From a virus: 64,000 nucleotides of DNA. The stretch lies in IMG/VR virus record IMGVR_UViG_3300045988_152007, positions 60,475 through 124,474 of that record. The stretch is one strand, 5' to 3'. This document shows positions 7,947-55,629 of the stretch, in pieces (the first letter of the stretch is position 1; each line of letters opens with the position of its first letter). The position numbers and the translations under genes are program-made. The notes below the pieces were generated by a model that made no database searches, was not told the origin of the DNA, and saw only the letters and a program-made list of their open reading frames with translations.

Positions 7947-8236
7947 GGGTCAACATCTCCATAGCTACCGTAATATTTCATATTGGTATTATTTACTGCT
8001 TCATTGCGTGCGGCTCGCATAATATCCATCCATTTATCTTGGGCAGCATCCCAATATTTTTTATCTTTGAAGGAATAAACAGCTATCGTCTCTTCTGTGG
8101 TATCTCCTACAGTTTGAATTTGCATTTTATATTTTTCATTTGGGTCGGTATAAAAACTAACGTAGAGGATGGCCGATGTTTTATAGCAGCAAAAATTTTT
8201 ATTATCTGTTGTAAATGTGAAATATGGATTAATCAT
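7940..8236 (-). CDS. hypothetical protein
   Basis: 98-aa ORF. Confidence 0.4.
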   Translation of the reverse strand: MINPYFTFTTDNKNFCCYKTSAILYVSFYTDPNEKYKMQIQTVGDTTEETIAVYSFKDKKYWDAAQDKWMDIMRAARNEAVNNTNMKYYGSYGDVDPW

Positions 8237-8438
8237 AAGTCATTAAATGTATCTATAGCGTCTTGATAATCTCTTATGTTATCGAATGTAAATGTTTCAA
8301 TACCGTTAGATTTAGTTGTAAGTTCCATTGTTAATTCATTATTTAATTCATTTTGAGTATAGAATTTTACGTTTACAATATCATTAACGACATAGAAAAA
8401 TATATTATTATCATCTAGGGCAAACTACATAAACTTTT

Positions 8439-8906
8439 TCATACAAGAGCCTCCAGATATTTATCCACTGTTTTAGTATAGTCAGCATAATTAATTTGTG
8501 TATTCCACTTTTGGATATCGGCCAGAATGCTGTCAATAGTTGTAAGAGTAGGTGCGTTGCCATAATTAGTGGTATCTATTTCAAATGCGGGCTTAGGAGT
8601 AGGCTTAGGGGCGAGTGCGAATTTTTCACATGCTGCAATATTTTTCTTGAAATTCACTTTTCCATAATTGCCCATAGTGCCAAGGCAGTAAAGATTATCT
8701 TTATCATTGGGGTTAATCATATAGGCATACATGCAGTCGGGCAGTAATTTATGATAGGGGTCATAATCTTTAAGGCAGTAGATAGTAGTAGCACTAAGTC
8801 CGCCCTTGGTGAGTAGCCTCTTCTGGAACTCTTCACCATTAAGGACCCAGACTTTAAGATTGTTGTAGCTACCAACTTTGCCATTTTGTTCACGATAATT
8901 TGGCAT
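8439..8906 (-). CDS. hypothetical protein
   Basis: 155 aa. TGA stop overlaps the ATG of a downstream micro-ORF (ATGA). Confidence 0.45.
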   Translation of the reverse strand: MPNYREQNGKVGSYNNLKVWVLNGEEFQKRLLTKGGLSATTIYCLKDYDPYHKLLPDCMYAYMINPNDKDNLYCLGTMGNYGKVNFKKNIAACEKFALAPKPTPKPAFEIDTTNYGNAPTLTTIDSILADIQKWNTQINYADYTKTVDKYLEALV

Positions 8907-9121
8907 TTAAGATTTTCCTTTCTTATCTTTTATCTTATATATATTTTATCAAATTTTTTTATATTTTTCCACTATTTATAAAACCAATAGGTATATTTTT
9001 ATTTCAACTTATATCAATTAAACTTGTTATAAATTACTTAAAATTTTTTGGGCCACCGCGGTTAAGAATATTATTCATATTTTTATATATAGTAGATTAA
9101 TAAAAGAAAAGGAGAATATAT

Positions 9122-9274
9122 ATGCCAAGTAAACGTGAAGGCTATCATAATATTGCAACTCGTGTTAAGGATGAAGAAAAGGCACGTATTGATGAATTCT
9201 GTAAAGAAAATGATATGAGTGTTTCGCAATTAATTAGAAAAGCCATTAAAGAATATATTGATAAGGAGAAGTAA
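9122..9274 (+). CDS. ribbon-helix-helix (CopG/Arc-like) DNA-binding protein
   Basis: 51 aa. MPSKREGYHNIATRVKDEEKARIDEFCKENDMSVSQLIRKAIKEYIDKEK. GGAGAA RBS. Confidence 0.55.
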   Translation: MPSKREGYHNIATRVKDEEKARIDEFCKENDMSVSQLIRKAIKEYIDKEK

Positions 9275-9469
9275 TACAAAGTGAACAAAGAACAAAATAA
9301 AAATATGATTATTTATTCATTAGCTGTTATGGAAAAGCTAGTGGAAAATGGTCATTTCCCTATATAGACTATGCCCAATCCCAAATATCCTGAATATAAT
9401 TGCTGGATATTTAAGGTTGATGATGATTTTATGAGGGATTTTGTTGAAGCTCAAAGGAGGTAATTATTT

Positions 9470-9991
9470 ATGGCAGTTGAAAAGCCGAATAAAGAAAAAT
9501 TTACCTTCTGGGCTAATATGAGAGAAACTATTGAATAGAATGAAGATGTAGAATTAAAATATAAATTATATAGTGCATTAACTAACTATGGATTGTATGG
9601 TATTGAGCCTGATGAGAATGATAAAGATTATGGAGTTATTATGATGCTGTTATAGTCTATGAAACTTACTATTGATAAGTCTAAAGAGGTTAGTAAATAG
9701 AAAGCAGAAGCAGGAGCAGCTGGTGGAGCATAGTAGAGAATTTATAAAGAAGATGTAGAAAAAGCGATAGTAAAAGCTGTTAAAGATAAAAATGGAGTTC
9801 CTACTAAATAGGAAGCAGTTGATGCTTATTTTAAAATTTTTGGTTAGAAGATTAGTACCAGAGCATTAGACAGAGTAGATTATAAAGCTCCGTAGATATT
9901 TGAATTAGCATAGAAGGTATTAAATGGGACCTATAGGACAAATGCGACAAATGAGACAAAAGCAGACATTTGTCTTGAATGGGACAAATGA
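9470..9991 (+). CDS. hypothetical protein, TAG-recoded (about 9 in-frame TAG), C-terminus overlapping iteron array
   Basis: ATG after GGAGG. First in-frame TAG at 9536-9538. Sensible translation continues to TGA at about 9989. Confidence 0.35.
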
Positions 9992-10220
9992 GTTTTGTCC
10001 TATTTTTAAATGAAAGTATTAAAATGTCGATAGGACAAATGCGACATAACTAAATAAAAATCTAAAAAAATTAGCAAAATGACTTAGTTTAGGACAAATG
10101 CGACAAATGCGACAAAAGCTGAAGAAAGAAAATGTCCTGTCCGATTTGTCCTATTCAGGACATCGAACATAACATATTTGTCCTATTGTGTCCCATTCGG
10201 TCCACAATAGGACAAAACAG
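9934..10220. repeat. iteron-like cluster of direct and inverted TAGGACAAA(TGCGACA) repeats
   Basis: Direct copies at about 9934, 9981, 10031 and 10090 (taggacaaatgcgacaaatgcgacaaaagc). Inverted copies tttgtcctat at about 9994, 10144 and 10176, plus aataggacaaaac at 10206. Confidence 0.6.
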
Positions 10221-10261
10221 GGTATTTTCTTGAATGGCGGTGTTGGCCTTGTGGTTGCAAA

Positions 10262-10330
10262 GAAATGAATTGAAAAATGAAATCAAAAATTGAAAGGAAA
10301 AATTGAATTGAAAAATTATGAATTTAATAT
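10262..10330. repeat. AT-rich tract with reiterated GAAAAATTGAA motifs adjacent to iterons
   Basis: gaaaaatgaaatcaaaaattgaaaggaaaaattgaattgaaaaattatgaa. Confidence 0.4.
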
Positions 10331-10940
10331 GAAATTATAGAATCGTGAGAATTTGTTAAATATTTATAGAACATTAGAACCATTATCATCATTTAGTAAA
10401 TATAATGATTGGTTAGATAGAGAATATATAGCTATGATAGTTCCAGATAATTATAAAGAAATATGTGTAGATGATTAGAAAAAATTAACTAAACCTTATT
10501 GGACATATAAATAGAAATATTATAATTGGTTTGGAACCAAAGATGAATTTGATGCTATGGTTGCAAGATAGTAGGAAGAAAGACGAAAATTACTTGAACG
10601 ATAGTCTAAAAAAAATGTATCATAGGTATGTGATGGTGGAGTATATGGTATATATAGGAATGGATAGTTAATTTATATAGGTAGTACTGTTGATTTTAAT
10701 AAAAGATGGAATGAACATAAAAGAAATATTAAAAATCATAATAATAGTTTATATGTATATAAACTATTAAATGAGTAGAGAGATAATATTGAATTTAAAC
10801 CAATTATAAAAGGAGAGGATTTATTATGTGATAGAAATATAACATCTGCTGATTTAAAAACTATAGAGTTTGCGTTAATTTTATTATATAAACCTTGTGG
10901 GAACATAGCAGGTAGATTATAGCCATTTAGATATAAATAA
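10329..10940 (+). CDS. GIY-YIG homing endonuclease, TAG-recoded
   Basis: Motif VYGIYRNG(TAG)LIYIGSTVDFNKRWNEHKRNI. About 9 in-frame TAG. TAA stop at 10938-10940, followed by hairpin gtaggctaattgtatattagcctac. Confidence 0.6.
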
Positions 10941-11304
10941 AGTAGGCTAATTGTATATTAGCCTACAAGAGATATAATTATAAAGAAGGTATTATAAAAA
11001 TTTAATATAAATTTAATTTAAAATTAATATTAGTTAATATAGAATCATTTATGAATTATAATAATTTGAGAAAAGATTGTTATAAAATTGATATAAATTG
11101 TATTAAATTAGGGAGTGGGTGTGCCCCTACTGCACCAGTGGTACCCCTATTCTCCATATATCGACCGACATCAATTATTCATCACCCTAATGCAATTATA
11201 TCTTTTTTTAATATTATATCATATTTTTTTATAAAAATCAAATTTGACTTTCCAAAATTTTCCAGCCAAAATAAAAAAATAAGAAAAGGGCATAAGCCCT
11301 TCTC

Positions 11305-11700
11305 TTACCACCCCATCATATTAAGGAACTTATCAATGACTTCATCAGCAGAGCCATTGACCTTGTATACCTTAGCCTTTACTTTCTCAGCAGGCTTCTC
11401 AACCGTCTTACCAAGGTCTTCAATAGCACGACCAATCTTATCAGCCATATCAAAAACCTTCATCAGGTCTTCCGGCTTGACCTCAATGTCATAACCATAA
11501 TAATCCTTAGCAAACTTCACCAGGCCAGTGCAGATAGCCTGTGCATCCGCGGCCATTGTCTGATCTCTCTTGGACTTTTCAGCCTGAGCCTTCAACTCTT
11601 CTGTTCTCTTGGCCTGTGCCTTATTCAGTTCCTCAGTGATGCTCTTGGCAATATCCTCTGCGGATTCACCCTTCATCAGACGATCATAAAAATCATACAT
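11305..11700 (-). CDS. hypothetical protein (K/E-rich, coiled-coil-like)
   Basis: 131-aa ORF with a terminator hairpin at its 3' end. Confidence 0.5.
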   Translation of the reverse strand: MYDFYDRLMKGESAEDIAKSITEELNKAQAKRTEELKAQAEKSKRDQTMAADAQAICTGLVKFAKDYYGYDIEVKPEDLMKVFDMADKIGRAIEDLGKTVEKPAEKVKAKVYKVNGSADEVIDKFLNMMGW

Positions 11701-11860
11701 ATGTATATTACCTCTTTATAAAGATTTCCAGAACTCTTTATTCTGTATATATATTATAAAATATTTTTTTAAAAATTGCAAGTTTCGGGAAAAACATGCG
11801 GCATATGAGAGGCTGCTAGATTGAACAAAAAATTGCCATATGAGGGTTTAAACGGGAATT

Positions 11861-11887
11861 CCGACCAAGTCTTGCCAGACCGGTCGG
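11861..11887. terminator. GC hairpin ccgacc...ggtcgg, possible bidirectional terminator
   Basis: ccgaccaagtcttgccagaccggtcgg, followed on + by a T-rich tract. Confidence 0.35.
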
Positions 11888-11943
11888 CTCCAATTTATTT
11901 ATTTAATTAATTGAAGTATTTTTAATACTTCATCATACCCATA

Positions 11944-12519
11944 CTAATTTATCAATCGAGTTGTTTCCTTTGTTATTTCTTTCCTATTCATTAACATCCA
12001 AGCAGTATTCTCTTTATTAGTTCCCCATCTTAAATTTGATAACCTATTATTCCCTCTTTTTCCATCAATATGGTCTACTGTCAAATTTTGGAAATCAGGG
12101 CTAGGGTGCCAAGATTGTAATACAATTCTATTCATTCCATATCTATGATAATCTAATTCTACATACTAATATCCATCTATTATAGTTCCCTATAAAATTT
12201 TTTTATCATATTTTTTTCTAACCCTTCCTAAATCTGATACTTCGTACAAGTTAGAACAATAAGTAGTTATCCATTTTTCATTTTTTAATTCTTCTTCAGA
12301 TAAATGAGAATAATTATCAAGTTCTCGTTTTTTAGAAAAAAATTTTTTATCTAATATCTATGGTTCTACTTCTTGAATAGTATAATCAGCCGTTTCACCT
12401 TTACCAATTTTTGTAATTAAATACCCTTTAGCTAAATTTTTAGAGCAGAGCAAGGGAAAATTGGTTTCTACCATTCCAACTGTTGTATTAATATATTTTG
12501 CTAATTCATATTTGTTCAT
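11944..12519 (-). CDS. HNH homing endonuclease, TAG-recoded (3 in-frame TAG)
   Basis: ATG at 12519-12517 after AAAAGGAGG. N-terminal NLYEVSDLGRVR motif. C-terminal HNH VDHIDGKRGNNRLSNLRWGTNKEN. The in-frame TAG at + 12166-12168 was verified codon by codon. Confidence 0.6.
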
Positions 12520-13802: not shown

Positions 13803-14660
13803 TTACAGCTCCCAATCACTGTCAAATCTTCCCAACTTCTTGTAGGGGAAATATTCAATGCCCATTTCAAACTTGTGCTTGGTCTTTGCTCCAATAAGGG
13901 CGAACAGCATAGACTCAATAATTGCGTCCTCTAATGCAGTATGACTTTCTTCAAAATCTTCCTGCTGGAAACAATAGGCAAATGCCTTTTCTGCGTTAGT
14001 CGGATAATATTTGCCGCTTGCGGTTCTCCACTCATTATCATAGCACATCTGTTTATATTCAGGATTATTCAACAGGTGTTCACAAGACAGACCCCACAAG
14101 TCAAACAGCGGATACGTCTTGCCATGGAAGCGGAAAACATCCGGTTCAAACTCTTTCTGCGAATGGGGCTTGCTTCCGTGGGCGATTGCTTCACATCTAT
14201 CATTCTGATATGCTTCCCACTCAAAGAAATCAGGGGCATAGAGCTTGGAAACATACAGGTCAGTGAATGGAATAGCTTTCTTAAAGTCAAACATACTGTT
14301 ATATGCTCCAACAGCTACAACAGCGTCCAAATCTTCAATCAGTTCATTGACTGCGGTATTCCAATCCGTCAGCTTGATTTCTCCGGCTTTCAGACGCTCC
14401 AAATAAATCGGACGCTTACTTGCATAATATGCAGTATTGAAAACTGCGGGAACACTGAAAATTTCAGAAATAAGGTAGGACGCACGCTTGTAAACATTGC
14501 CCCGAATATCCACAATCTGCCATCCCAAATCATAAATCAGCGGCTTGGCGATTGCGACATCTTTTTTCTGGTTTGCATTAAACTTTGCGGCATAAGGAAG
14601 TGTCGCAGTTTCACAATCCAGAATCAGGTAATACTTTCGACGCTTATCAAGTTTAGTCAT
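13803..14660 (-). CDS. DEDDh (DnaQ-like) 3'-5' exonuclease
   Basis: 285 aa. Exo I YLILDCETATL, Exo II YNSMFDF, Exo III HTALEDA. Confidence 0.65.
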   Translation of the reverse strand: MTKLDKRRKYYLILDCETATLPYAAKFNANQKKDVAIAKPLIYDLGWQIVDIRGNVYKRASYLISEIFSVPAVFNTAYYASKRPIYLERLKAGEIKLTDWNTAVNELIEDLDAVVAVGAYNSMFDFKKAIPFTDLYVSKLYAPDFFEWEAYQNDRCEAIAHGSKPHSQKEFEPDVFRFHGKTYPLFDLWGLSCEHLLNNPEYKQMCYDNEWRTASGKYYPTNAEKAFAYCFQQEDFEESHTALEDAIIESMLFALIGAKTKHKFEMGIEYFPYKKLGRFDSDWEL

Positions 14661-29168: not shown

Positions 29169-29197
29169 TTGACTTTGCAAATTTTTTGTGTTATAAT
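29169..29197 (+). promoter_or_regulatory. rightward late-operon promoter TTGACT-17-TGtTATAAT
   Basis: ttgactttgcaaattttttgtgttataat. Near-identical 29-mer at 45579. Confidence 0.55.
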
Positions 29198-29225
29198 TTT
29201 TTTAGAAGGATTGGAGGTATTAATC

Positions 29226-30290
29226 TTGATAAAATTAGATTATACTCTTGAAACTCCTGAAGAACGAAATGAATTAGTAAAAAAAATTTTAGAGGAAAAT
29301 CCAAATCCTAATGAAAAGTATTTAGAAATCCTCGCAGATTATTTAATTCTATGTATGGAGAAACAAGAAAAAAAAGAAAAGAAAATATTAACTGATAATA
29401 GATTAATGACAGTTAATAAACGTGAAACTTCTTTTGAAGGACTTGTTTCCCAGTTAGAGAATGGTGAAGATGGTATATATAATTTAATTAATAGTGATAA
29501 AAATATGATATTTTAGCCAAAAGTTACAATTACAAAAAAAGATTTAGAAGAAATTCCTAGCTTAAAACAATTAAAAGACGCTATTACAACTTGGGAAGCA
29601 AAAATGAAAGTAGTAAGTGGTAAAGATGCTTTCACTATAAAAAAGGCATTAATAGAAATGCGCAAAGACCAATATATTATTAAAAATGCTTATCGAAAAC
29701 CAATAGTACCAGTAAAGCTTACACGATCTAAGTATAAAATTAAATTAGATGAAGACGTAAAAGTATTTGATGATGATGGATATCCAATTCCAGAAGGAAT
29801 CTCATTGATGAATCCTGAAATTTGCTCTTGTATCTTATGTAATTATTCTCGATTAAAAGAAGATAGTTGGGATCGTTTTGAAGATGATACTTGGTATCTT
29901 ATTTATGATTTTGAAAATATTTGCGATGAAGCCTTGGCTGATTATCCTATGTTAATGCGCATTGTAGAATGTAAAATTGATGGATTACAAAATATAGAGA
30001 TTCAAAAAATTTTACAAGAAGAATTTAATATTACTCACAGCTTAGAATATATATCAAGTTTATTCCGCAATAAAATACCAAAGCTTATTGCTGATAAAGC
30101 TGTTGATAAATATTTAGAATGGTATTATACAACTCAAGAAAAAGGTAAGTATAAAAAATGCAGTAGATGTGGGCAAATTAAATTGGCTCACAATAAATAT
30201 TTTTCCTATAATAAAACAAGTAAAGATGGATTTTATAGTATATGCAAAAAATGCCGAAATAGTTCTCGTAAAGAAAAAATGAAATCCTAA
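29226..30290 (+). CDS. first late-operon protein (354 aa) with C-terminal zinc ribbon; single in-frame TAG at codon 97
   Basis: TTG start 6 nt after GGAGGT. ORF-track pieces 29169..29516 and 29604..30290 are in one frame and joined across the TAG at 29514-29516. C-terminus CSRCG...CKKC. Confidence 0.5.
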
Positions 30291-30308: not shown

Positions 30309-31523
30309 TTGTCCAGCGAAGGTAAACAATATTACTGTGAAAAATGTAATAAAACTATGGATGGAACTTAGTTTTATACATCTAATAATTTAGATAAATA
30401 TCCTAATGATGGTAAATTACCAAAATGTAAAAAATGTATAACAATGCATGTAGATAATTGGAATCCGGATACTTATCTATGGATATTGCAAGAATGTGAT
30501 GTTCCTTACATTCCTGATTAGTGGAATTAGTTAATGGGTAAATTTGCGAAGGATAGAGCGAAAGTCACTGGAATGACAATATTAGGTCGCTATCTCTCTG
30601 CAATGAAATTAAATCAATGGAAAGATTATAGATGGAAAGATAGTCAATTCTTGCAAGACTTACAAAATAAAAAAATAGAAGAAACAATGAAGCAATAGGG
30701 ATATGATGTTCAAGATATTACTACGGCTATTCAACGTGCTTCATTTGCTTTGCCATCAGAAGAATTAAAAGAGCCGCCTCCTCCTGCCCCTCCTCCCCTA
30801 GATTTTGGAAATTCTGCAGAAGATTATTTTAAAGATAAATTAGATTTTGAGGTTCCTGATTTGGGCGCGGAGCTAACAGACGAAGATAAACGATACCTTT
30901 ATTTAAAATGGGGAAAAGGTTATAGCCCTGATGAATGGGTACGCTTAGAGCAATTATTTAATGAAATGATGTAGTCTTACGATATTTAGTCAGCAGGCCA
31001 TATTGATACATTAAAACTTGCCTGTAAGACATCATTAAAATCTAATTAGTTATTAGATATAGGTGATGTAGACGGCGCTCAAAAGATGATTAAAATGTAT
31101 GATTCTTTAATGAAATCAGGCAAATTTACTGCCGCATAGAATAAAGAAGAGTCTGGCGATTTCATTGATTCTGTTGGTGAATTAATAGAAATGTGTGAGA
31201 AACAAGGTTATATCGAAAGATATTACATTGATACTCCAAATGATAAAGTAGATTTTACAATTAAAGATATGCAAAAATATACACGCACTTTAATTGAACG
31301 AGAAACTAATCTTGGCAATATGATTGATTAGGCATTAAAACAAAACGCTAAAGAAGATGAATAGGCTAAAGAAAACGTCGAAGATACAATTGTTGATGAT
31401 GTTGATATGTCTATTGAAGACATTGAAAAAACTTTAGAAGATAAAGATATTGAAGACTTTAGTGAATTTTTAGATAATGAAACAGAGTTAGATATAGATG
31501 CTTTCTCTGATAGGGAAGATTAA
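30309..31523 (+). CDS. putative DNA-packaging protein (terminase small subunit candidate), TAG-recoded
   Basis: TTG start after AAAGGAGA. N-terminal zinc ribbon YYCEKCNKTM...CKKCITMH and acidic C-terminus. Frame verified through about 10 TAG to TAA at 31521-31523, which overlaps the ATG of the next gene. Confidence 0.4.
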
Positions 31524-33274
31524 TGGCGTTACAAGATTTACTTGACCTATCTACAAGTAGGAAAAAAATAGGTCTTTCTGAAGAACGTATTAATGCCGTA
31601 ATGCCAGTCATTCGTAAATATACTGCCTTTTGGCGCGAATATCCAGATTTATTTGTTGATTTTTTAGTACGAGGAACACGTACAGAATAGAAAGAAGGAG
31701 AATTTAAATTTTTCTTCTATTAGCGTGTTTTTTTAAGATGTGTAATGCGCTATCAGTACGTTTATGCAGTTTTCCCTCGTGCCTATTCTAAATCATTCTT
31801 ATCAGTTATGGCATTAATGGTTAGATGTATTCTTTATCCTGGTGTTCATTTATTTGTTACTTCGGGTGGTAAGGAACAAGGCGCGAGTATTCTACATGAT
31901 AAAGTTAATGAAATTTGTGATTTAATACCAAGTTTTAAACGCGAAATTGATTGGGGCCGAGGTAAGAGCCAAGAGAGTAAAGATAAAGTACGTTATGTAT
32001 TTAAGAATGGTTCTGTCCTTGATAATTTAGCTGCGAGAGAAAGTACTCGTGGTCAGCGTCGTCATGGTGGTCTAATGGAAGAATGTGTAGGTATTGATGA
32101 TTAGATTTTACGCGAAGTCATTATACCAGTTATGGCTATTCCTCGTAGAGCTAAGGATGGTACAACTCATGAAGAAGAAGCGGTAAATAAATCATAGATT
32201 TATATTACTACTGCTGGCTATAAAAATACTTATCCTTATGATAGATTAATTGGTTTATTAGTTCGTATGATTACATAGCCTGATAGATGTATGGTATTAG
32301 GTGGAACTTGGCGAACTCCTGTTGCTGTTGGATTACAACAGAAAACATTTATTACTGACCAAAAAAATGAAGGAACTTATAATGAAGCTTCTTTCGAACG
32401 TGAATATGAATCAATTTGGTCTGGTACTGTTGAAGACGCTTTCTTTAATGCAGAAATATTTAATAGAAATAGAATACTGAATTAGCCTGAATACGAAGCT
32501 TCTGGCCGTTCAAGTAAATTATCTTATTATATATTAAGTGTTGACGTAGGCCGTAAAGGATGCGATACTGTTGTTTGTGTATTTAAAGTAACGCCGCAAC
32601 CGCATGGTGAGCCAATTAAAAGTTTAGTTAATATTTATACTATGAATGATACACACTTTGAAGATTAGGCTATTAAACTTAAAAAATTATATTATAAATA
32701 TAAAGCTCGCAGAATTGTAATAGATGCTAATGGACTTGGTGTTGGTTTAGTAGATTTTATGGTTAAGCCATAGATTAATCCTGAAACTTCTGAAGTAATT
32801 CCTGATTTTGGAGTTTATGGTGGAACTCAGGATGATGCAGTTCAAGAATATAAAAAATATAAAACTAATAGTACAGAATTAGATGTTTTATATTTAATGA
32901 AAGCTAATGCACCAATTAATACTGAAGCCCATAGTATTACTTAGTCAGTATTAAATTCTGGTAAGATTAAATTTTTAATTGATGAACGAACTGCTAAATA
33001 GAAATTATTAACTACTAAAGTGGGCTAGAATATGACCACAGAAGCGCGATCTGATTATTTAAGACCATTCAGTTTAACTACTTCATTGCGTGAAGAGATT
33101 ATGAATCTGCGTGAAGAAAATGAAGGTTTAAATATAATTTTAAAACAAGCTAATAAAAGTATTAAAAAAGATAAATTCTCTGCATTAGAGTATGGATTAT
33201 ATTATATAAAAAAAGTAGAAGAAGATAAAAAGAAGAAAAAATTCCGGGCTGCTGATTGGATGTTTATGAATTAA
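31523..33274 (+). CDS. terminase large subunit, TAG-recoded
   Basis: ORF-track fragments 31745, 32291 and 33032 are all in frame with ATG 31523. Motifs GGLMEECVGIDD, ITTAGYKNT, and RNaseH-like nuclease ILSVDVGRKGCDTVVCVF. Confidence 0.65.
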
Positions 33275-46287: not shown

Positions 46288-46326
46288 TATATATAGAAAT
46301 TTATAATGAGAGAAAGGAGCTATTTT

Positions 46327-49300
46327 ATGGCTAATAACAGTGCTAATTATAATGTTAATATGCGATTTACAGCTGATACAGGTCAAGCTAAATAGCAATT
46401 ACGAGATTTACAAAGTTCATTAGATACTTTAATGAATTAGATAGCAACAAAAAATATTAAATTTTTTGATGTTAATGCCACTAAAAAAGAAATAGATGAA
46501 GCCTCGGCAGCAGTTTAGGAGTTAAAAATTGCTTTAGATTAGGCGACTAATGTTAATACTGGGCGTTTAGATTTATCAAAATTTTCAAAGAGTTTAAGCT
46601 AGAGTGGTTATACTCTTTAGGATTTTGCTACACACTTAGAGAATCTAGGCCCAACAGGTGATAAAGCATTTGTTGCATTAGCATAGTCTGTTATTAATGC
46701 TGAAGTTCCTTTAAAAAGAACTAACGCTATATTAGATAATTTTAAAAAGACATTAGCTAATACAGCCAAATGGCAAATTTCATCTAACTTAATGCATGGA
46801 GTATAGGGTTCTTTATAGAAAGCTTACTATTATGCAGAAGATTTAAATAGATCATTAAATGATATTCGTATAGTTACTGGATAGAGTAATGATTAGATGG
46901 CTGAGTTTGCTGAAAAAGCTAATAAGGCTGCTCAAGCATTAAGTACAACTACTACTAATTATACTAATGCTTCTTTAATTTATTATCAATAGGGTTTAAG
47001 TGATAAAGAAGTTGCTGATCGTACTGAAGTTACTATTAAAATGGCTAACGCCGCAGGCGAAAGTGCTTCTAAAGTATCTGATTAGTTAACTGCTGTTTGG
47101 AATAACTTCTATGATGGTAGCAAATCTCTTGAATATTATGCAGATGTAATGACTAAACTTGGTGCATATACTGCTTCTAGTACTGATGAAATTTCAGAAG
47201 GTATATAGAAATTCGCTTCTGTTGCTAATACTATTGGTCTTAGTTATGAATATGCTACATCTGCATTAGCTACATTAACTGCCAAAACACGTGAAAGTGC
47301 GAATACAGTAGGTAATAGCCTTAAAACCTTATTTGCACGTATTTAGGGTCTGACTCTTGGAGAAACTCTTGAAGATGGTACTGATTTAAATAAATATTCT
47401 AAAGCCCTTGAAAAAGTTGGTATTAGTATTAAAGATCAATAGGGTGAGTTAAAAGATATGAATACTATCCTTGATGAAATGATGAATAAGTGGGATAGTT
47501 TAAGTCGTGCTGAACAAGTGGCTCTTGCATAGACTGTTGGTGGTGTTCGTCAATACACTCAATTAGTTAATCTTATGGAGAATAAAGATTATTTTAAAGA
47601 GCTAGTTGGAGTGGCTAAAAATTCTGAAGGTACTTTACAAGAACAAGCTGATATTTATGCTGAAAGTTGGGAAGCTTCTAAAAAGCGAGTACAAGCTTCT
47701 CTTGAAGAAATTTATAAGCAATTAGTTAGTGATAAATTTTTTATCGGATTAAATGATACATTAAGTGATACATTAAATATTACAAGCAAATTGATTGATT
47801 CATTAGGCGGATTGCCTGGTGTATTAAGTGTTATTTCTACTTTAATGCTAAAAAGCTTCGGTCCTGATATTGTAAATAATATGCAGCGTATGGCTTCCAA
47901 TTTGTTTATTGACAGCGGAGCTGCTGAAAATTAGGCTGCGGTTATGAAGCAGTAGATGATAAATGTTTTAAAGACCTTTACAACTTATGAAGAAAAACCT
48001 GATTTAACAAAATAGGGTTCAGTTGAATTAGAAACAACTACAATGGTTAAAGCTGCAGAGGCTTCTTATGATTTATAGCTAGCAAATAATTAGTTAAATG
48101 AAACAGATAAATTAAGATTATAGACATTATTAAAAATTTCTTAGGCTTATGGACAAATAGCTATAGAATCTAAAAAAAGCATAGAAGCTCAACAAACTTA
48201 GAGTAATAACAATTTACGTAATGCTCGCAATACAATTTTTGAAGATAATAATAAAAAATTTGGTGGAGATAAGGGCGTAATTTATTTTGACAATAACTTA
48301 AAAAAAGGCCAAAAGATTGTTGATAATTTTTATAATGATAAAACAATGCAAGATTTAGAGTCTTTAAAAATTAATTCAAATGGTTCTTTTAAAGATTTTA
48401 TTTCTCAATTTGGTCAATTAGATTTAAATAATCAAAGATATAGTAAATTAAATTAGTTAATTCAATAGGGTAACAATTCTAATCTAAGTAATGGTGCTAA
48501 AGGTACTCTTAGAAAAGATATATTAGCTGAAGTTAATAATTTAAGAGACGTTAATCTTGAAATTGATAATTATGTTAATTAGAAAATTAAAGCAGAAAAA
48601 TTAACAAAAGCTTAGTCTAATGCTTTAAGATAGTGTCTTACAGATTACGTAAATGAGAAAGAGGCTCTTTTGTAGAACAAAGGAGCGGTTGAAAAATATG
48701 AGAGTGCTATTGAAGCTTTTAACGCAGAATTAAAAGCTAGTCAAGGATCTATATATAGTTTTTCTCAAGGATTAGTTTCTAGTTTTTAGGGTATTTCTCA
48801 ATTAGCTATTGGAATCAATAGTTTAAAAGGAATGTTTAATACTTTAAATAATAGCGAATTAGATTTTGGAGAAAAATTAACTTAGAGCATTACTTCGGCA
48901 AGTTTTGCTATTCCTTCTTTAATCAATGGAGTAAATTAGTTAGCTAGTGGATTAAAAGAAATTGGAACTAATTGGAAGGGACTAGGTACTAATATTTTAT
49001 CAATAATGACTGGTTTAGGAGGGTCTTTATAGGGTTCTGACTTATAGGCAGCTTTAAAGACAAAGATAGAGAATAGCTCTGGATTTAGAGCTAAAATTAT
49101 GCAAACTGGTCTTGATGCTTATACCGCCAAGCTTAAAGAATTGGGAGTAGCTGCTGGTTCTGCGGGAACTGCTGAATAGCAATTGGCAGCTAGTGGTGCA
49201 GCGACTCATGCAATGTTTACTAAATCTTTACTTGTTTTGGGTAAATATGCTTTAATAATTGGAGCAGTAGTTGCTGCCATTGCTGTATTGGTTAAAGTAT

Positions 49301-52300
49301 ATAATACAGCTTAGTCTTTTACTATAGAAGAACAAATTAAACGTTCTGAATAGGCTGTTGAGAGTTTTAAAAGTTAGTTAGAAGAAACAAAAAATAAAGC
49401 TGAATAGTTAAAATCAGTATTTGATAGTTATAGCTCTGTTAAATCTGCTTTAGATGAATGTACTGTTGGTACTAAAGAATGGCGTGCATAGTTAACTAAA
49501 GCTAATGAAGAAGCTCTTAATATTTTAAATACTTATCCTGAGCTAAAGAATATGGAAGGTGCTTGGGGCAAGAAAGATACTGGTGAAATTTGGATAGACC
49601 AAAGTGCTGTTGATAAATTATAGTCTATTTATGATAAATAGATTCTTCAATAGCAATATGCTTTAGCTAATGAACAAAGCAATTTAGAAGACTTAAATAT
49701 TGAAAAAGCTAAATAGGACTTAATAAGTAATCTTTAGGGTGTTCTTAATATTTAGAGTGGCAGTACAACTGGAGGATTAACAAAAAATGGACAATATACT
49801 TCAGTAATGCCAGGTATAGCAGATTTAATTTTAAATAATTAGGAAAATTTATAGAATAAAAGTTAGGAAGAACAAGTTAGTATTATTGAATAGGCATTAA
49901 AGAATAATGGATTTGAAACTCTCAATAACAGTACGACTTTAAATGATTATGCCTAGAAAATTGCAGATAAATTTAATACTGATGATGTTCAAGCTGCTAT
50001 ATCTAATGTCTCAAAAGTAATACAAGCAAATACTGATGCTACATTATAGGTTACGAAAGAAGCTTCAGTCCAATAGGCTCTTGGATTAGATACTATGTCT
50101 ACTGAAGATGCTAAAATAACTACTGCTTTGGTAGATGCTAATATTGAAGCTATAAAAAATAGTTTTTATAATGAGAATGGAACTATTAGTTGGGATGACG
50201 GAACTGGTAAGGACCGAGAAATAGGAACTCACGATGAAAATGCTGGTGGAGTTGGTAAAGGAGATCAAGCTTTACGTAATTTATGGGATGCTTATTTAGC
50301 AGCGATTAAAATAGATAAAAATGATAGTGAATATAAATTAGATTAGAAAAATTCTGTAATTGGTGAAGGTTAGAATAGATCATTCCAATTAGAAAATGGA
50401 AAAACTAAATCATTTTCAGAAGTTGCTACTGCGATAGCTACTATGTAGGCTATGGGAAAAGAACTTCAAACTACTTATGCTATGGCTCAAAAATTCTAGA
50501 CTGGTATGAGCAATCAAGGAACTGTAGGCCAAGGTATTTTAGAATTTTTTGGCAATGATGGTGATTTAAGTAATTTTACTCAAGATTAGCTTAAATAGTT
50601 AAAAAAAGATATAGAAAAAGGTTTTGAAGATGAAGATTTACAGAACTTAATTGGATAGAGTTTATTTGGCGAAGATTTTAATTTATTAAAACCTGAATAG
50701 CAAGAAACCGTAAAATCATATATGTCTAATATGATGAAAGAATTAGGCGTAACCAGCGGTAAAGAATTAGGTGAAGCCATAGTAGAAGAAGCATCTCACT
50801 AGATTACTAACATTGAGGATATAAATAATAATAAAGCATTTAAATATATATTAGGGCTTGAAGATGAAGATGATATATCAGAAGCAATTGATGAATTTGA
50901 AGGATATAGTGTTTCATTAAAATCTCGTATTTCTTAGATTGCAGAAGATATATTTAAAGTGGCAGGTAAAAATGGAGTCGCCGCGTTTACTGAAGCGATT
51001 AATACCATAGGAAAAGATTTAACTTTTGATTAGTTAAATAAAATAGCTGATTTTGATTGGTCTTCTGGAACTTGGGAAGAATTTATTGATACCCTAGAAG
51101 ATTTAGGTATTGTTGTGTCAGATGATGAAGGAGCTTGGAAAGGCTTCTATGATATGATGCAAGAAACTGCTAATAAATTGCCTATAGAAGATTTTACTAC
51201 TTTTAGAGATTTGTTAATTGAAATTTTTAACTTGATGGGCCAAGAAGTCGGTAGTTCTATCACTCAAGAAAAATATGATAAGATCACTGAAGGTTTTAAA
51301 GCTGCTGGATTAAATCCTGAAGATTATTATGTTTAGACTGGTCTGGATACCTATGTAAAAGTTAAAGATTTTGATACTGCTGCTAAGAATGCATTAATTC
51401 AGGCTGGAGTAGATAGAGCTGAAGAATAGCATAACGTTGCAGAGGCTCATCAAGAAGCTTGGGGATCCGGTATAAAACAAGGTGGATATATTTTTAATGG
51501 ACAAGAATATACTCAATTAGAGGCAATGCAAAAAGGTTTAACTGATGATTCTGGGGGATCCTTATTACAATAGGCTTTAGATATTTTTGGCAGTCCTGAA
51601 GAAATAGCAAAATTAGTTGGCACCGATGAAAGTGGTAATTATGATTTAGACTTCTATAAACGTTAGGATTCAGCTACTTAGGCTGCTATTATGCAAGGAA
51701 TAATAGATGCTTATATGGCTAATATTGATGGATCATATAATGCTGATTTATTAAGAACTAATGCTTATACTGATGCTAATTCAGTAAAAGAAATGAATCA
51801 AATGACAGGTTTTAATTTAGGTGATGAGGCTAGCTAGCAAGGTTTAGTAAGTTGGGCTGCTAAAAATCAAGATATTGAAGGTAATACTGAAGCTTTAAAT
51901 TAGTATAATTATGAAATGGAGTAGGCTGGAGATAATGCTAATGCCGCCCAAAAAGCTATTAATAATTTATATAATGCTTTACGTAATAATGAAATAAAAG
52001 AAGCTACCAAAGAAATTAGTGAATTAAAAACAAAATATAAAGAGCTGCGTGATGAAGGTGAAGATACTGCTGAAGTAGAAGCTGATTTAAAACAAAAAGT
52101 AAAAGATTTATTTAATTTTTCTGAATCAGATTATTAGATGAATCAACCATTAATAGAAAAATTTTTATGGGGTAATGATGATGAAGCAGCTTTAGCTGGT
52201 CAAGTCTTAGATATGTTTTCTCAAGTAGATAGTGCTTTAATCGAAAAAATAAATGAATCTGCGGGAAAATTAGATTTTTCAACATTATATACTGAAGCTC

Positions 52301-55300
52301 AATCTAAATTAACTGAAATAACTAATCTTTTATCTTAGAACGATGGATTTGTAGTTAATGGTAAAATTACAGCAGATGCTTCTTAGGCTTTAGCTGCCAT
52401 AACTCCTATCAGTGGTTCTTTAGAAGAAATGTGCGGATGGATTAATGCTATGGGCCAAGTAGGCATTCATTTCACTACTGATTAGCTATAGCAATTATTA
52501 GAATGTTTTGCTCAAATGGCTGATATTATGGGCGGTAAAGACATTAGTGATCTTACATCTGATGACGCTGCCAAGTTAAGAGATTTAAAAAGTCAAATAG
52601 GTGATATAGTTTCTGTTGCTTCTGAAGGTTCTGTTGTTACTCAAGGTGATGGCAGCAAATATTTAACCACTGAAAACGGGAATAAAGGTGGTGGCGGAGG
52701 CGGTGGAGGTAAATCTACTAAATCTGCTAATGATATTGGTAAAGAAATTCAAGATGAAGTATTAAAAACAAAAGAAAAGAAACGTGATCGTCTTGAAGCT
52801 TTACGTGAGGGAGCTAATCCAGAAGATTCTGCTAAATATATCCAAGAAGAAATAAAATTATTAAAAGAAGAGCAAGATATTCTTGAAGATTAGATTAAAT
52901 CTTGGAAAAAGTTATTAAAACTTAAAGTAGAAGAATTTAACAAAGAAAATCCAGAATTTGAAATAAAGCTTACTGATGATGGTGAAATTGCTAATGCTTC
53001 TGAGCTATGGGGTAAAGTTTGGGCTTAGTATCAAAAAAATCTTGAAGATGGCATGAGTGAAGAAGACCTGAATGAATGGTTTACTAAAATCAAAGATAGT
53101 CTTGATGGTCCTATGGGTATCCAATAGAACATTGATGAAAATGTCGCTCTTATCGCTCAGAAAGAAAAAGAAGCTGCTGAACTTGAACTCGAAGCCATTA
53201 CAAAAGCTATTGATTGGAAAGTTAAATAGATTGATTATTAGATTAAACGTCTTAATTATTATCAAGAAAAACTTCTTAAATAGGCCCATGGTAATAAACA
53301 AACTATTGAAGCAATGCTTGAAGGATTTGCTTACCAAGAGCAAGAAATGTTATAGCTCTTTGATAAAGGTGCTACATTACGTTAGGGTATTGATTAGTTG
53401 AACGCCGCGAAAGCTAAGTATCCAGGTTATGAACAAATGTTTGATGAATAGATACTTGAATATCAAAGTGATTTAATTGATGTTAATGAAGCTATTCTAG
53501 ATTTACGTAATGATATTGAAGATTTGGTTTAGAATGTTCTAGACTTGGCACTTGATGAAATTGATAAGTAGATAGAACGTCTTGATACTTATACATCGAT
53601 GCTTGACCATCTTAATAATATTATTGATTTATCTGGTCGCTCAATGCTTGATATGGGATTAAAAACTTAGATTGGTGCTACTAAGGTAGAAACAATGTTA
53701 GGTAAAATGAAATCCTTAAAAGCACAAATGGATGGTTTGGCTAAAGCAACTAAAGAGGCTTAGGCCGCTCTCGCTGATCGTCAGGCTGATGGTGATACAT
53801 CTTCTGTTAAATTCTGGGAGAATCAAGTTGAAGTATTAAAACAAGAAACTGAAAAAGCTTCTGATGAATTTTTAGCTTCTTGGGAAGAAACACTTGAAGC
53901 TGCTCAAGATTTATTTGAAATGCGTGTTGAAATGGCCGTTAATGTATTAAGTAATGCATTATCACCATTTGAAACTCTTGAAGATTTCCAAGACAAATAC
54001 GAAAAAGCAAAAACTATCAATGAAGAATATCTTGATGATGCCGAACGCTTATATGAATTAAATAAATTAAATCGTTAGCTAAATTTATAGCTGGCTGATA
54101 CTAATGACCTTTTAGCTAAACAAAAACTTAGAGACATTTAGCAAGAGATTCACGATCTTCAGGCCGATGGCGTCTAGATGAGCCAATATGATCTTGAGTA
54201 TTTGTAGAAGAAATATGACTTACAACTTGCTGAAATAGCTCTTATGGAGCAACAAAATTCCAAAACTTCAATGCGTTTAGTGCGTGATGCCGCTGGTAAC
54301 TGGACTTATGCTTATGATGCAGATGAAGAAAAAATTGAAGACGCCACATAGAAATATGAAGATGCGGTTCATGAATTAGGTAAGTTAAGTAAGGATTATA
54401 TTAATGACGTAAGTGAATAGTTAATTTAGAATCAAATTGATTTTAAAGAAGCCCTACAAGATCTTGATAAAAACTCTGCGGATTATTCAAATTAGCTATT
54501 ATCATTGCAAGAGTATTATGTTGAAAGACAAAGATATTTACTTGATGAATTAAATAAAGGTGTTGTAAATAGTGGATTAACATTCCATGATACTCTCTAC
54601 GGCCAAATGACTGATTTGTATGATTATAATGATGCTTATATGTTATTTGTTAATAATTCTAATACTACAATTAGTGAATTACAAACCAATTATAAAGATT
54701 GGCAAAAAGTTGTTGAAGCAGCAATGAACGTTGCTGGTACATCTTGGGAAAACTTTGGTTCTGATATGGGCGGTACTCTTGATAGTCTTGAAGAACATAT
54801 TCAAAAATTGTGTGATGAAATTGAAGAGCTTGTTAATGTATTAATGGGTTATATTTCTTAGTCTATTGGAATGGTTCTTGATTGGGAATAGAAATATTCT
54901 AAGCGGACTGATGAAGAGTTAGCTAAGAATGAATAGTATATTGATGGTAACTTTGGCAGTAGCGGCGGCGGAAGTGGTGCTAGAAATTTAGTTGGTGTTG
55001 ATTTAAGTGCTATTGCTATTCGTATGAAGAATGGGGAAAGTACTGTTGTTGATAAAAATGGTAACGTTTGGACGAGTATTGATGATGTAGTTACAGCCCG
55101 TAATGAAAAATTAGATAATATGCGTAATGAGGGTCAAGAATTAAAGAATGATTCTAGCACTGATTATTGGACTAAAGACGAAATGAAATAGATTACTAGC
55201 GAAAAAGATGAAAAATGGTTAGATGATATTTTAAACGGAAATGGTGCTGCTTCTGGTGCTTATACTGGTAATTGGGCTAAAGGACAAGGCTTTGGACTTG

Positions 55301-55629
55301 ATAATGGTAAAATTATTAAAGTCCATCCTAAAGAATTAATTCTTAACCAAAAAGATACTTCTAATATACTTCGTGCAGTTGATATTGTTCGTAATATGAA
55401 TGATTGGGTTGATAAACAAGTGCAATCAATGATTAATTTTGGATAGATAAAGTTGGGTAATTTAATTGATAAAACTACTCCACCTGTTTATGAAACTTAG
55501 CCAATTAAGCAAGAAGTTACTATCCAAGCAGACTTCCCAGGAGTTACTGATCATTATGAAATTGAAGAAGCATTGTCTAATCTTAGTAATAATGCGGCTC
55601 AATATATAAGTGCAAATAAATCTAAATGA
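46327..55629 (+). CDS. tail tape measure protein (about 3100 aa), TAG-recoded
   Basis: The N-terminal region matches the TP901-type TMP domain (MTKLGAYTASSTDEISEGI.KFASVANTIGLSYEYATSALATLTAKTRESANTVGNSLKTLFARI). Six ORF-track fragments are in the same frame. I verified 46327-50100 codon by codon: dozens of TAG and no TAA/TGA. TGA at 55627-55629. Confidence 0.6.

What the first reader, a model, noticed from the sequence alone, without database searches (positions are those of the whole stretch)
9122..10330. Iteron array of TAGGACAAA(TGCGACA) direct and inverted repeats next to an RHH regulator: candidate origin or operator region
Between the RHH gene and the GIY-YIG gene there are at least four direct copies of taggacaaatgcgaca(a/t) and four inverted copies (tttgtcctat / aataggacaaaac) within about 290 bp. 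They are followed by an AT-rich tract built from GAAAAATTGAA units (10262-10330). The repeats overlap the 3' end of a recoded ORF (9470..9991). In several Firmicutes phages the origin lies inside the replisome-organiser gene. RHH proteins typically bind repeated half-sites of this kind. This island is the only plus-strand island inside the leftward early region.
Basis: seen in the sequence. Interest (0 to 1): 0.55.

Follow-up and report, generated by a model that had tools for sequence, protein, structure and literature searches.

The report
Candidate phage replication origin cassette
A 290-bp cluster of about twenty short "GACA" repeats sits at the end of a small DNA-binding protein gene in an uncultivated gut phage that reads the TAG stop codon as an amino acid; it is most likely that phage's replication origin together with its own origin-binding protein, a familiar design built from a protein family nobody has characterised.

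Summary
In the window, 7 of 8 TAGGACAAA copies lie in 9934-10216 (0.84 expected), and about 20 GACA-core boxes lie in 296 bp (1.2 expected).

The array does not track the RHH protein. It tracks the C-terminal helix-turn-helix domain of the overlapping TAG-recoded gene orf3 (9470-9991; DUF6291 + HTH). In sister genomes with 97-99% identical flanks, and with RHH, orf2 and the orf3 N-domain unchanged, the orf3 C-domain (31% identity) and all the boxes (GGACAAAT to GGGACAT) are swapped together.

The layout is conserved in relatives down to 30-40% protein identity:
- two box blocks around a 43-bp, 16%-GC spacer;
- three direct boxes, a purine spacer (AAGCTGAAGAAAGAA), then inverted boxes;
- a terminal 14-bp hairpin.

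Remote DUF6291 proteins are fused to a DnaD domain or to a lambda-O-like C-domain. The lambda-O-like ones sit directly upstream of a DnaC/IstB-like loader.

Best reading (about 0.6): an iteron origin with its cognate origin-binding protein, on the lambda O/ori, SPP1 gp38/oriL and SaPI Rep/ori pattern. The RHH would regulate the operon.

The GAAAAATTGAA tract belongs to the optional GIY-YIG gene. There are no binding or replication data. I class it as a new variant of a known kind, of moderate interest.

The parts
9048..9065 (.). Conserved GC-rich near-palindrome TTGGGCCACCGCGGTTAA in the 18%-GC leader of the RHH gene. Candidate operator or promoter element of the cassette.
   Evidence: Conserved in 8 related loci. 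Unique in the window, 0.02 expected. Its function is inferred.
9122..9274 (+). RHH gene (50 aa), first gene of the cassette. Probable transcriptional regulator of the operon, not the binder of the boxes.
   Evidence: PF01402 RHH_1 at 1.8e-7 and 31.3 bits, above the 20.5-bit cut-off. It is 49/50 identical in L002, whose boxes differ. It is replaced by a small HTH protein in L046.
9281..9463 (+). orf2 (60 aa, 1 in-frame TAG). Unknown small protein that always accompanies orf3.
   Evidence: No family hit. Identical in L002. Homolog in the distant locus L031, pairwise E 1e-7. Also present in L042, L043, L044 and L046.
9470..9991 (+). orf3 (173 aa, 9 in-frame TAG read as Gln). It has an N-terminal DUF6291 domain (aa 11-88), a C-terminal TetR-like HTH domain (aa 93-151) and a disordered tail encoded by the boxes themselves. 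Proposed origin-binding protein.
9925..10046 (.). Left block of boxes. Boxes at 9934-9990 lie inside orf3 (three phased direct 9-mers, then inverted pairs). Further boxes lie at 9992-10004 and 10022-10046.
   Evidence: The block is positionally conserved in 13 related loci.
10047..10089 (.). AT-rich spacer (43 bp, 16% GC) between the two blocks of boxes. Candidate DNA-unwinding element.
   Evidence: the window averages 33% GC and the box blocks 35-40%. Present at the same place in type A, type B and L031. The unwinding role is inferred.
10090..10116 (.). Three phased direct boxes: TAGGACAAA TGCGACAAA TGCGACAAA.
   Evidence: The triplet is conserved in all 11 aligned loci.
10117..10132 (.). Purine-rich central spacer AGCTGAAGAAAGAAAA between the direct and inverted triplets. 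AAGC plus a purine run is conserved even in cassettes at 30-40% protein identity.
   Evidence: Alignment A7 of 11 loci; the AAGC columns are invariant. Function unknown.
10133..10155 (.). Three inverted boxes: TGTCC TGTCC GATT TGTCCTA.
10177..10216 (.). Terminal perfect 14-bp inverted repeat TTTGTCCTATTGTG / CACAATAGGACAAA with a 12-nt loop, made of two boxes plus their flanks. It marks the right end of the array.
   Evidence: repeat I16. The RNA fold of 10120-10260 is -50.4 kcal/mol, z -5.1. A 12-14-bp hairpin occurs at this place in all 11 loci.
10217..10328 (+). Leader of the GIY-YIG gene, including the GAAAAATTGAA-type tract and the ribosome-binding site. Not part of the array.
   Evidence: 80-84% identical between type A and type B genomes. 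Absent from L019-L026, which carry a different GIY-YIG leader or no GIY-YIG gene.
10329..10940 (+). GIY-YIG endonuclease gene (203 aa, 10 in-frame TAG). An optional mobile insertion beside the array.
   Evidence: PF01541 at 1.9e-6. Absent in L026, where the array is followed directly by the 108-aa ORF that follows GIY-YIG in other loci.

Best explanation
Window 9048-10216 is a self-contained cassette in the order regulator, small partner, origin-binding protein, iteron origin. It belongs to a roughly 188-kb gut phage that reads TAG as a sense codon.

Shown:
- About 20 GACA-core boxes form two blocks around a 43-bp, 16%-GC spacer.
- The array starts inside the last 60 nt of orf3.
- Its sequence specificity changes together with the HTH domain of orf3, and only with that domain.

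Inferred mechanism:
1. The RHH protein controls the cassette promoter through the conserved GGCCACCGCGG element.
2. orf2 and orf3 can be translated only once TAG is being read as Gln.
3. The orf3 HTH domain binds each 8-9-bp box as a unit.
4. The highly conserved DUF6291 N-domain oligomerises or contacts the replication machinery. The result is a wrapped nucleoprotein complex like the lambda O-some or the SPP1 gp38-oriL complex.
5. That complex strains and opens the AT-rich or purine-rich spacer, and a helicase is loaded there.

The helicase-recruitment step is speculative. It may go through orf2 or through the DUF6291 domain, because orf3 lacks the lambda-O-type C-domain that its remote relatives carry.
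For: 1. Clustering far beyond chance.
2. Modular swap. Window against L029 is 97-99% identical over 8650-9600, about 50% over 9680-10200 (orf3 C-domain plus array), then 80-84%, then 95-100% from 11281. RHH is 49/50 identical, orf2 60/60, and orf3 aa 1-75 differs at 1 residue. The orf3 C-half is 31% identical. Boxes change from T(n)GGACAAAT to TGGGACAT(T/A) in all 16-20 copies.
3. The same architecture occurs in 13 close loci and in distant cassettes L031, L042, L043, L044 and L046 at 30-40% protein identity. These include standard-code phages.
5. Links between DUF6291 and replication:
   - P0044 and P0050 are DUF6291 plus a DnaD domain (PF07261 at 3.3e-8; TIGR01446 at 34 bits against a 24.95-bit cut-off).
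   - The L032-L039 proteins are DUF6291 plus HTH plus a C-domain that matches the C-terminal part of lambda-type O proteins and a Bacillus phage 'replisome organizer'. They lie directly upstream of an IstB/DnaC-like AAA+ gene.
   - The N-domains are homologous: hhalign probability 97.8%, E 1e-12.
6. The layout matches documented origins.
   - SaPI ori has iterons immediately downstream of rep, an AT-rich centre, opposite orientations on either side, and recognition by a C-terminal DNA-binding domain (PMC9371898).
   - SPP1 oriL lies inside gene 38 and has repeats plus an AT-rich unwinding element (PMC6316719).
Against: - There are no binding, replication or coverage data. Everything functional is inferred.
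- No helicase, loader, primase or polymerase gene lies within about 10 kb to the left or 19 kb to the right of the cassette.
- orf3 itself lacks a DnaD-like or O-like recruitment domain.
- The homology to O-like initiators covers only the DUF6291 N-domain, whose own role is unknown.
- orf3 carries 9 TAG codons, so it cannot be among the first proteins made. Recoded replication genes are, however, reported as variable among recoded phages (bioRxiv 10.1101/2021.08.26.457843).
- GC skew shows no genome-scale switch at the array, only the local coding-strand effect.
- Dense arrays of direct and inverted boxes also occur at centromeres and complex operators.
Confidence: 0.6

Rival explanations
1. 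The array is a large operator. orf3 is a transcription factor that autoregulates the cassette or controls the downstream genes (GIY-YIG, or the 108-aa ORF in relatives). It does not initiate replication.
For: The orf3 C-domain resembles TetR-type repressor HTH domains. The array lies just upstream of the next plus-strand gene. No replication enzyme genes are nearby.
Against: Sixteen to 28 boxes over about 300 bp, with an internal AT-rich spacer, is far more than known operators need. The downstream gene varies or is absent while the array stays the same. DUF6291 is fused to DnaD or O-like domains and, in the O-like relatives, sits next to DnaC-like loaders. It is not found in regulator contexts.
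Confidence: 0.15
2. The array is a centromere-like, packaging or genome-organisation site. orf3 coats it to segregate, condense or package the genome.
For: Type II and III plasmid centromeres are arrays of short direct and inverted repeats bound by small RHH or HTH proteins (general knowledge). The cassette includes an RHH protein and a small HTH protein.
Against: No ParA, ParM or TubZ-type NTPase is recorded within about +/-10 kb in the sister contigs L029 and L060. In the window itself only the island's neighbours and the larger ORFs were scanned. Terminase lies 21 kb away. The family's links are to DnaD, lambda O and DnaC-like proteins.
Confidence: 0.08
3. One reading: the 50-aa RHH protein binds the repeats as its operator half-sites.
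For: RHH proteins bind tandem or inverted short repeats (general knowledge). The RHH gene heads the cassette.
Against: The RHH protein is 49/50 identical, with an identical beta-strand region, in genomes whose boxes differ in every copy. L046 has GACA boxes but no RHH. A separate conserved palindrome sits in the RHH gene's own leader.
Confidence: 0.03
4. The region acts mainly as structured RNA or DNA: a transcription terminator or attenuator for the RHH-orf2-orf3 operon, or the 5' UTR of the GIY-YIG gene.
For: The fold of 10120-10260 is -50.4 kcal/mol with z -5.1. A 12-14-bp terminal hairpin is present in all 11 loci. A terminator-like hairpin lies at 9967-9990.
Against: The stems are made of the inverted boxes, so their conservation follows from the boxes. 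No U-tract follows the terminal hairpin. There is no Rfam match. Direct repeats and the protein covariation are not explained by an RNA element.
Confidence: 0.05

Closest known systems
Bacteriophage lambda O protein and ori-lambda (lambdoid initiator with iterons inside its own gene)
   Same: - Iterons are embedded in the initiator gene, next to the segment that encodes the DNA-binding domain.
- The DNA-binding domain and the iterons change together between related phages, while the other domain stays constant (lambdoid hybrids; general knowledge).
- Remote DUF6291 relatives carry a C-domain similar to the C-terminal part of lambda O and precede a loader gene, as O precedes P.
   Different: - orf3 has no match to the lambda O N-domain family and no O-like C-domain.
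- The domain order is reversed: here the variable DNA-binding domain is C-terminal.
- There are about 20 boxes of 8-9 bp in both orientations, against four 19-bp iterons in lambda.
- The array runs past the stop codon.
- No loader gene is adjacent.
SaPI (staphylococcal pathogenicity island) Rep and ori
   Same: The ori lies immediately downstream of the rep ORF. Six to twelve short iterons are split by an AT-rich centre, with opposite orientations on the two sides, and are recognised by a C-terminal DNA-binding domain that sets specificity (PMC9371898). The array here has the same plan.
   Different: SaPI Rep is a self-loading hexameric helicase with a winged-helix C-domain. orf3 is a 173-aa protein with no ATPase domain and a TetR-like HTH domain.
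SPP1 gp38 (replisome organizer) and oriL; lactococcal P335-type rep/ori
   Same: A small origin-binding 'organizer' protein whose gene contains the origin, with direct repeats plus an AT-rich unwinding element (PMC6316719).
   Different: There is no sequence or family relation to gp38 or Phage_rep_org_N. SPP1 has the loader (gp39) and helicase (gp40) genes adjacent, and none is adjacent here.
Pfam DUF6291 (PF19808)
   Same: The orf3 N-domain scores above the curated cut-off, as do 20 of 33 relatives.
   Different: The family has no described function, and no paper in the searched library mentions it. This work links it to origin-proximal initiator-type proteins.
CopG-type RHH copy-control genes upstream of plasmid rep genes (pMV158 copG-repB)
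   Same: A small RHH gene is the first gene of an operon that ends with the initiator (general knowledge). There is weak similarity to the ORF56 plasmid copy-control family, 29.8 bits against a 50-bit cut-off.
   Different: The score is below the curated cut-off. pMV158 replicates by rolling circle using a nicking Rep protein, and nothing here suggests that.

Membership tests
Iteron-type replication origin with adjacent cognate initiator | Cluster of short repeated binding sites far above chance | tested here: met
   7 of 8 TAGGACAAA copies fall in 283 bp, and 20 GACA boxes against 1.2 expected.
Iteron-type replication origin with adjacent cognate initiator | AT-rich, easily melted segment within or beside the iterons | tested here: met
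   10047-10089 is 43 bp at 16% GC, against 33% for the window. A spacer occupies the same place in relatives.
Iteron-type replication origin with adjacent cognate initiator | Iteron sequence co-varies with the DNA-binding domain of the adjacent protein | tested here: met
   The orf3 C-domain and all the boxes are swapped together between otherwise 97-99% identical genomes.
Iteron-type replication origin with adjacent cognate initiator | The protein binds the repeats specifically | not testable with these tools
   Needs EMSA or footprinting.
Iteron-type replication origin with adjacent cognate initiator | The fragment supports initiator-dependent DNA replication | not testable with these tools
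   Needs a replication assay or marker-frequency data.
Iteron-type replication origin with adjacent cognate initiator | Helicase or helicase-loader partner encoded alongside | tested here: not met
   None was found in the window's early region or 10 kb beyond it. This is met only in the remote relatives L032-L039. It is a common feature of such origins, not a universal one.
Lambda O family | Similarity to the lambda O N-terminal or C-terminal domains | tested here: not met
   orf3 has no Pfam, NCBIfam or tblastn match. Only the remote DUF6291 proteins match the O C-domain.
Pfam DUF6291 | Score above the curated gathering threshold | tested here: met
   34.6 bits against a 27.2-bit cut-off.
RHH repressor with this array as its operator | Operator sequence tracks the RHH protein | tested here: not met
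   The RHH protein is unchanged while the boxes change. The boxes are present without an RHH protein in L046.
Plasmid or phage partition centromere | Partner NTPase gene (ParA, ParM or TubZ) in the same module | tested here: not met
   No such family is recorded within about +/-10 kb in the sister contigs L029 and L060 (precomputed Pfam hits), nor among the window proteins that were scanned. Small window ORFs more than about 2 kb from the island were not scanned.
Known RNA families (Rfam 15) | Match at or near the gathering score | tested here: not met
   The only hit is a chance match (E 0.53) to a microRNA model.
GIY-YIG homing endonuclease (the neighbouring gene) | GIY-YIG catalytic domain, and presence or absence varying between relatives | tested here: met
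   PF01541 at 28.5 bits against a 22.6-bit cut-off. The gene is absent in L026.

The most novel reading that the evidence does not exclude
DUF6291-HTH proteins with orf2 form a previously unrecognised split initiator system. In it a minimal origin-binding module works without any DnaD-like or O-like recruitment domain. In this TAG-recoded phage, origin firing would be gated by the switch of genetic code: with 9 TAG codons in orf3, the origin-binding protein cannot exist until TAG suppression is on. That would make this a second-stage (late) origin, or a checkpoint tying replication to the code switch.
Probability: 0.2. Interest if true: 0.7.

Novelty: new variant of a known kind. Interest (0 to 1): 0.5.

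Why it matters
- It gives a testable function (origin binding) to an uncharacterised domain family, DUF6291.
- It gives a concrete candidate origin for a clade of uncultivated, roughly 188-kb, TAG-recoded gut phages, for which skew-based origin calls are unreliable.
- It provides natural specificity variants: type A and type B cassettes sit in otherwise near-identical genomes. These are a ready-made experiment for protein-DNA recognition and for incompatibility-like behaviour between co-infecting phages.
- If the origin reading holds, the heavy TAG recoding of the origin-binding protein would link replication timing to the change of genetic code.

Tried and rejected
Searches that gave nothing useful:
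- An exact 16-mer search of IMG/VR returned 16 single, unrelated hits.
- blastn of 8000-12000 and tblastn of orf3 against 50,697 phage records found no match.
- Rfam found nothing.
- A PDB sequence search with the family profile found nothing below E 0.1.
- No paper mentions DUF6291.
- NCBIfam has no family for orf2 or orf3.
- The genome-contig scan found only one remote hit, in a Treponema MAG.
- The candidate -10-like motif TATAGTAGA and the GC-rich leader element are unique in the window, so they are not a shared late-promoter signature.
- The sigma-70 promoter scan was not above shuffles.

Analyses that were uninformative or limited:
- GC skew follows the coding strand and gives no information about an origin.
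- RNAalifold on the terminal hairpin was weak. My segments aligned poorly and the stems are made of boxes, so I do not claim RNA covariation.
- The first AlphaFold2 run, with only close homologs, was poor (pLDDT 67). A deeper alignment fixed this.
- The afdb50 fold library was unavailable.
- hhalign tied orf3-type and O-like proteins together only through the N-domain, so I do not claim that the two HTH domains are homologous.

Ideas rejected:
- The GIY-YIG protein as the box binder. The array is intact where that gene is absent.
- orf2 or the RHH protein as the specificity determinant. Both are unchanged across specificity classes.

Full report
**1. The observation**

The repeat cluster is real and far beyond chance.
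- TAGGACAAA occurs 8 times in the 64-kb window. Seven copies lie in 9934-10216, four on the + strand and three on the - strand. Shuffles give 0.84 copies.
- The underlying unit is a 9-bp phased box, T(A/G)(G/C)GACAAAT.
- With GACA as the core there are 20 boxes in 9925-10220, against 1.2 expected from the rest of the window. GGACA occurs 12 times against 0.22 expected. No other 300-bp window comes close.
- The first boxes lie inside the last 60 nt of ORF 9470-9991.

The 16-mer occurs three times, not four or more. There are three exact inverted 9-mers, not four.

**2. Context**

The window is part of a phage that reads TAG as a sense codon.
- Rightward genes from 29.1 kb carry many in-frame TAG codons. 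They include a sigma-like factor, TerL and a 3107-aa protein.
- The leftward genes in 1-28.9 kb carry none.
- Contigs that carry identical proteins are 188-191 kb long and come from human and pig gut metagenomes.

The plus-strand island contains, in order:
- an RHH gene (9122-9274; PF01402);
- orf2 (9281-9463; no family);
- orf3 (9470-9991; 9 TAG codons; DUF6291 above the Pfam cut-off);
- the array;
- a GIY-YIG endonuclease gene (10329-10940; 10 TAG codons).

No tRNA gene and no known RNA family lies here.

**3. Which protein goes with the repeats**

Fourteen closely related loci were recovered. All have RHH, orf2, orf3 and the array. They fall into two specificity classes.
- Type A (the window and ten relatives) has boxes T(n)GGACAAAT.
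- Type B (L002, L029, L030) has TGGGACAT(T/A), in all 16 copies.

Window against L029 gives this identity profile:

| Window segment | Content | DNA identity |
|---|---|---|
| 8650-9600 | leader, RHH, orf2, orf3 N-domain | 97-99% |
| 9680-10200 | orf3 C-domain and array | about 50% |
| 10200-10300 | region after the array | 80-84% |
| from 11281 | downstream genes | 95-100% |

At the protein level, comparing the window with L002, another type B locus:
- RHH is 49/50 identical.
- orf2 is 60/60 identical.
- orf3 residues 1-75 differ at one position.
- The orf3 C-halves are 31% identical.

So the boxes change together with the orf3 C-domain and with nothing else. The GIY-YIG gene is missing in L026 while the array there is intact. 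That excludes the GIY-YIG protein as the binder and marks it as a mobile insertion.

The GAAAAATTGAA tract accompanies only one GIY-YIG variant. It contains that gene's ribosome-binding site and start codon, so it is not part of the array.

**4. The protein**

With a deep alignment, AlphaFold2 gives a confident two-domain model (pLDDT 87.2).
- Helices 15-84 form the DUF6291 domain.
- Helices 93-151 form a compact helical domain.
- The tail, residues 157-173, is disordered.

**5. Conservation of the architecture**

Cassettes at only 30-40% protein identity share the same plan. These are L031/L041, L042, L043, L044 and L046, and at least some of them use the standard code. The array features below were read in L031, L042 and L044; L043's contig ends inside its array and L046 is held only to its first inverted box. 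The plan is:
- boxes inside the 3' end of the gene;
- a second block of boxes;
- an AT-rich spacer;
- three phased direct boxes;
- a purine spacer, AAGC(T/G)(A/G)AAGA(A/G)AGAAGA;
- two or three inverted boxes;
- a 12-14-bp terminal hairpin.

In the window the AT-rich spacer is 10047-10089 (16% GC). orf2 always accompanies orf3. The upstream regulator is an RHH protein in L031, L042 and L043 but a small HTH protein in L046. That is the behaviour of a replaceable operon regulator. A GC-rich near-palindrome conserved in the RHH leader (9048-9065) is its likely site.

**6. Why replication**

DUF6291 has no described function. Its relatives point one way.
- Two relatives (P0044, P0050) are fused to a DnaD domain, above the curated cut-off.
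- A group of temperate-phage proteins (L032-L039) is DUF6291 plus HTH plus a C-domain. That C-domain matches the C-terminal, P-binding part of lambda-type O proteins and a Bacillus phage 'replisome organizer'.
- Each of those genes is followed directly by an IstB/DnaC-like AAA+ gene.
- The N-domains of the two groups are homologous (hhalign probability 97.8%). I do not claim homology of the HTH domains.

The array's plan matches documented origins.
- SaPI ori has iterons immediately downstream of rep, an AT-rich centre, opposite orientations on the two sides, and specificity set by a C-terminal DNA-binding domain (PMC9371898).
- SPP1 oriL lies inside gene 38 and has repeats plus an AT-rich unwinding element (PMC6316719).
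- In lambda, ori lies inside the O gene (general knowledge).

**7. Proposed mechanism and its weak points**

Shown: the clustering, the architecture, the covariation with the orf3 HTH domain, and the family's links to initiator-type proteins.

Inferred:
- orf3 binds each box through its HTH domain.
- The DUF6291 domains assemble the bound protein into a wrapped complex.
- The AT-rich or purine-rich spacer opens, and a helicase is recruited.
- The RHH protein regulates the operon.

Weak points:
- There are no experimental data.
- orf3 has no recruitment domain.
- No helicase, loader or polymerase gene lies within 10-19 kb.
- GC skew is uninformative.
- orf3 cannot be made before TAG suppression is active. 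Use of the alternative code in replication genes is, however, reported as variable among recoded phages (bioRxiv 10.1101/2021.08.26.457843).

Confidence in the origin reading is about 0.6. The rivals are a large operator for orf3 (0.15), a centromere or organisation site (0.08), a structured RNA or terminator (0.05), and an RHH operator (0.03).

**8. Verdict**

The RHH-binding idea and the AT-tract idea are not supported. This is a known kind of system, an iteron origin overlapping the gene of its binding protein. It is built from an uncharacterised protein family and has a distinctive, widely conserved box layout, so I class it as a new variant of a known kind. Interest is moderate (0.5). Its value lies in assigning a function to DUF6291, in pinpointing a candidate origin for an uncultivated recoded phage clade, and in the natural type A and type B specificity swap, which makes the hypothesis directly testable.

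Noticed in passing
window 9048-9065: GC-rich near-palindrome TTGGGCCACCGCGGTTAA in an 18%-GC leader. It is conserved upstream of the RHH gene in 8 loci and unique in the window. L026 has a second copy right before the ribosome-binding site. It is a likely operator or promoter element of the cassette.
   Followed up: partly
window 11899-12519 (-): An HNH/NUMOD4 endonuclease gene with 4 in-frame TAG codons sits in the otherwise TAG-free leftward region. Both homing-type endonuclease genes near the cassette (this HNH gene and the GIY-YIG gene) use the recoded TAG.
   Followed up: partly
window 10329-10940; L026 1650-1700: The GIY-YIG gene is absent in L026, where the array is followed directly by the 108-aa ORF that follows GIY-YIG in L022 and L024. 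This is a presence/absence polymorphism typical of a mobile endonuclease gene inserted beside a conserved site.
   Followed up: yes
window 29169-30290 and 31523-33274: A sigma-factor-like gene (phrog_5767, 3e-52, 1 in-frame TAG) opens the TAG-rich rightward region. The terminase large subunit follows. The cumulative GC-skew minimum at about 28-29 kb coincides with this divergent-transcription point.
   Followed up: partly
window 46306-55629 (+): A single 3107-aa ORF with 108 in-frame TAG codons, readable only under code 15.
   Followed up: no
window 1-64000: No tRNA gene, and so no suppressor tRNA, lies in the 64-kb window. The leftward ORFs of 80 aa or more end in TAA (28), TGA (15) and TAG (2).
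   Followed up: partly
P0019-P0036; L032-L039 proteins; P0041: Many distant orf3 homologs end in a conserved F(N/D)F. The O-like DUF6291 relatives end in EEMPF or EDMPF, and one (P0041) ends in DDDDIPF, which resembles the SSB C-terminal tail. These may be protein-recruitment tails. The type A protein of the window lacks such an ending.
   Followed up: no
L033 5368-5430: The O-like DUF6291 genes carry ACCACAAACC twice and (GATGTA)n repeats in the linker between the HTH domain and the O-like C-domain (encoding …NLDVDVDVDV…). This may be an in-gene origin at the position where lambda has ori.
   Followed up: no
window 13803-14660 (-); L031 9862-10617 (-): A 285-aa protein with a DEDD-exonuclease-like N-terminus (…ILDCETA…; only an unknown-function PHROG matched) has what looks by eye like a counterpart (…VVDCETA…) in the distant standard-code phage L031. 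That phage also shares the cassette, which suggests a wider lineage relationship. The two proteins were not aligned.
   Followed up: no
L060 11560-13040 (left of the window start): Beyond the window's left end, the 188-kb contig encodes a SAM synthetase (MetK-like), a T7 Gp5.9-like protein and an AAA_33 kinase. No replication enzymes lie within 10 kb.
   Followed up: partly
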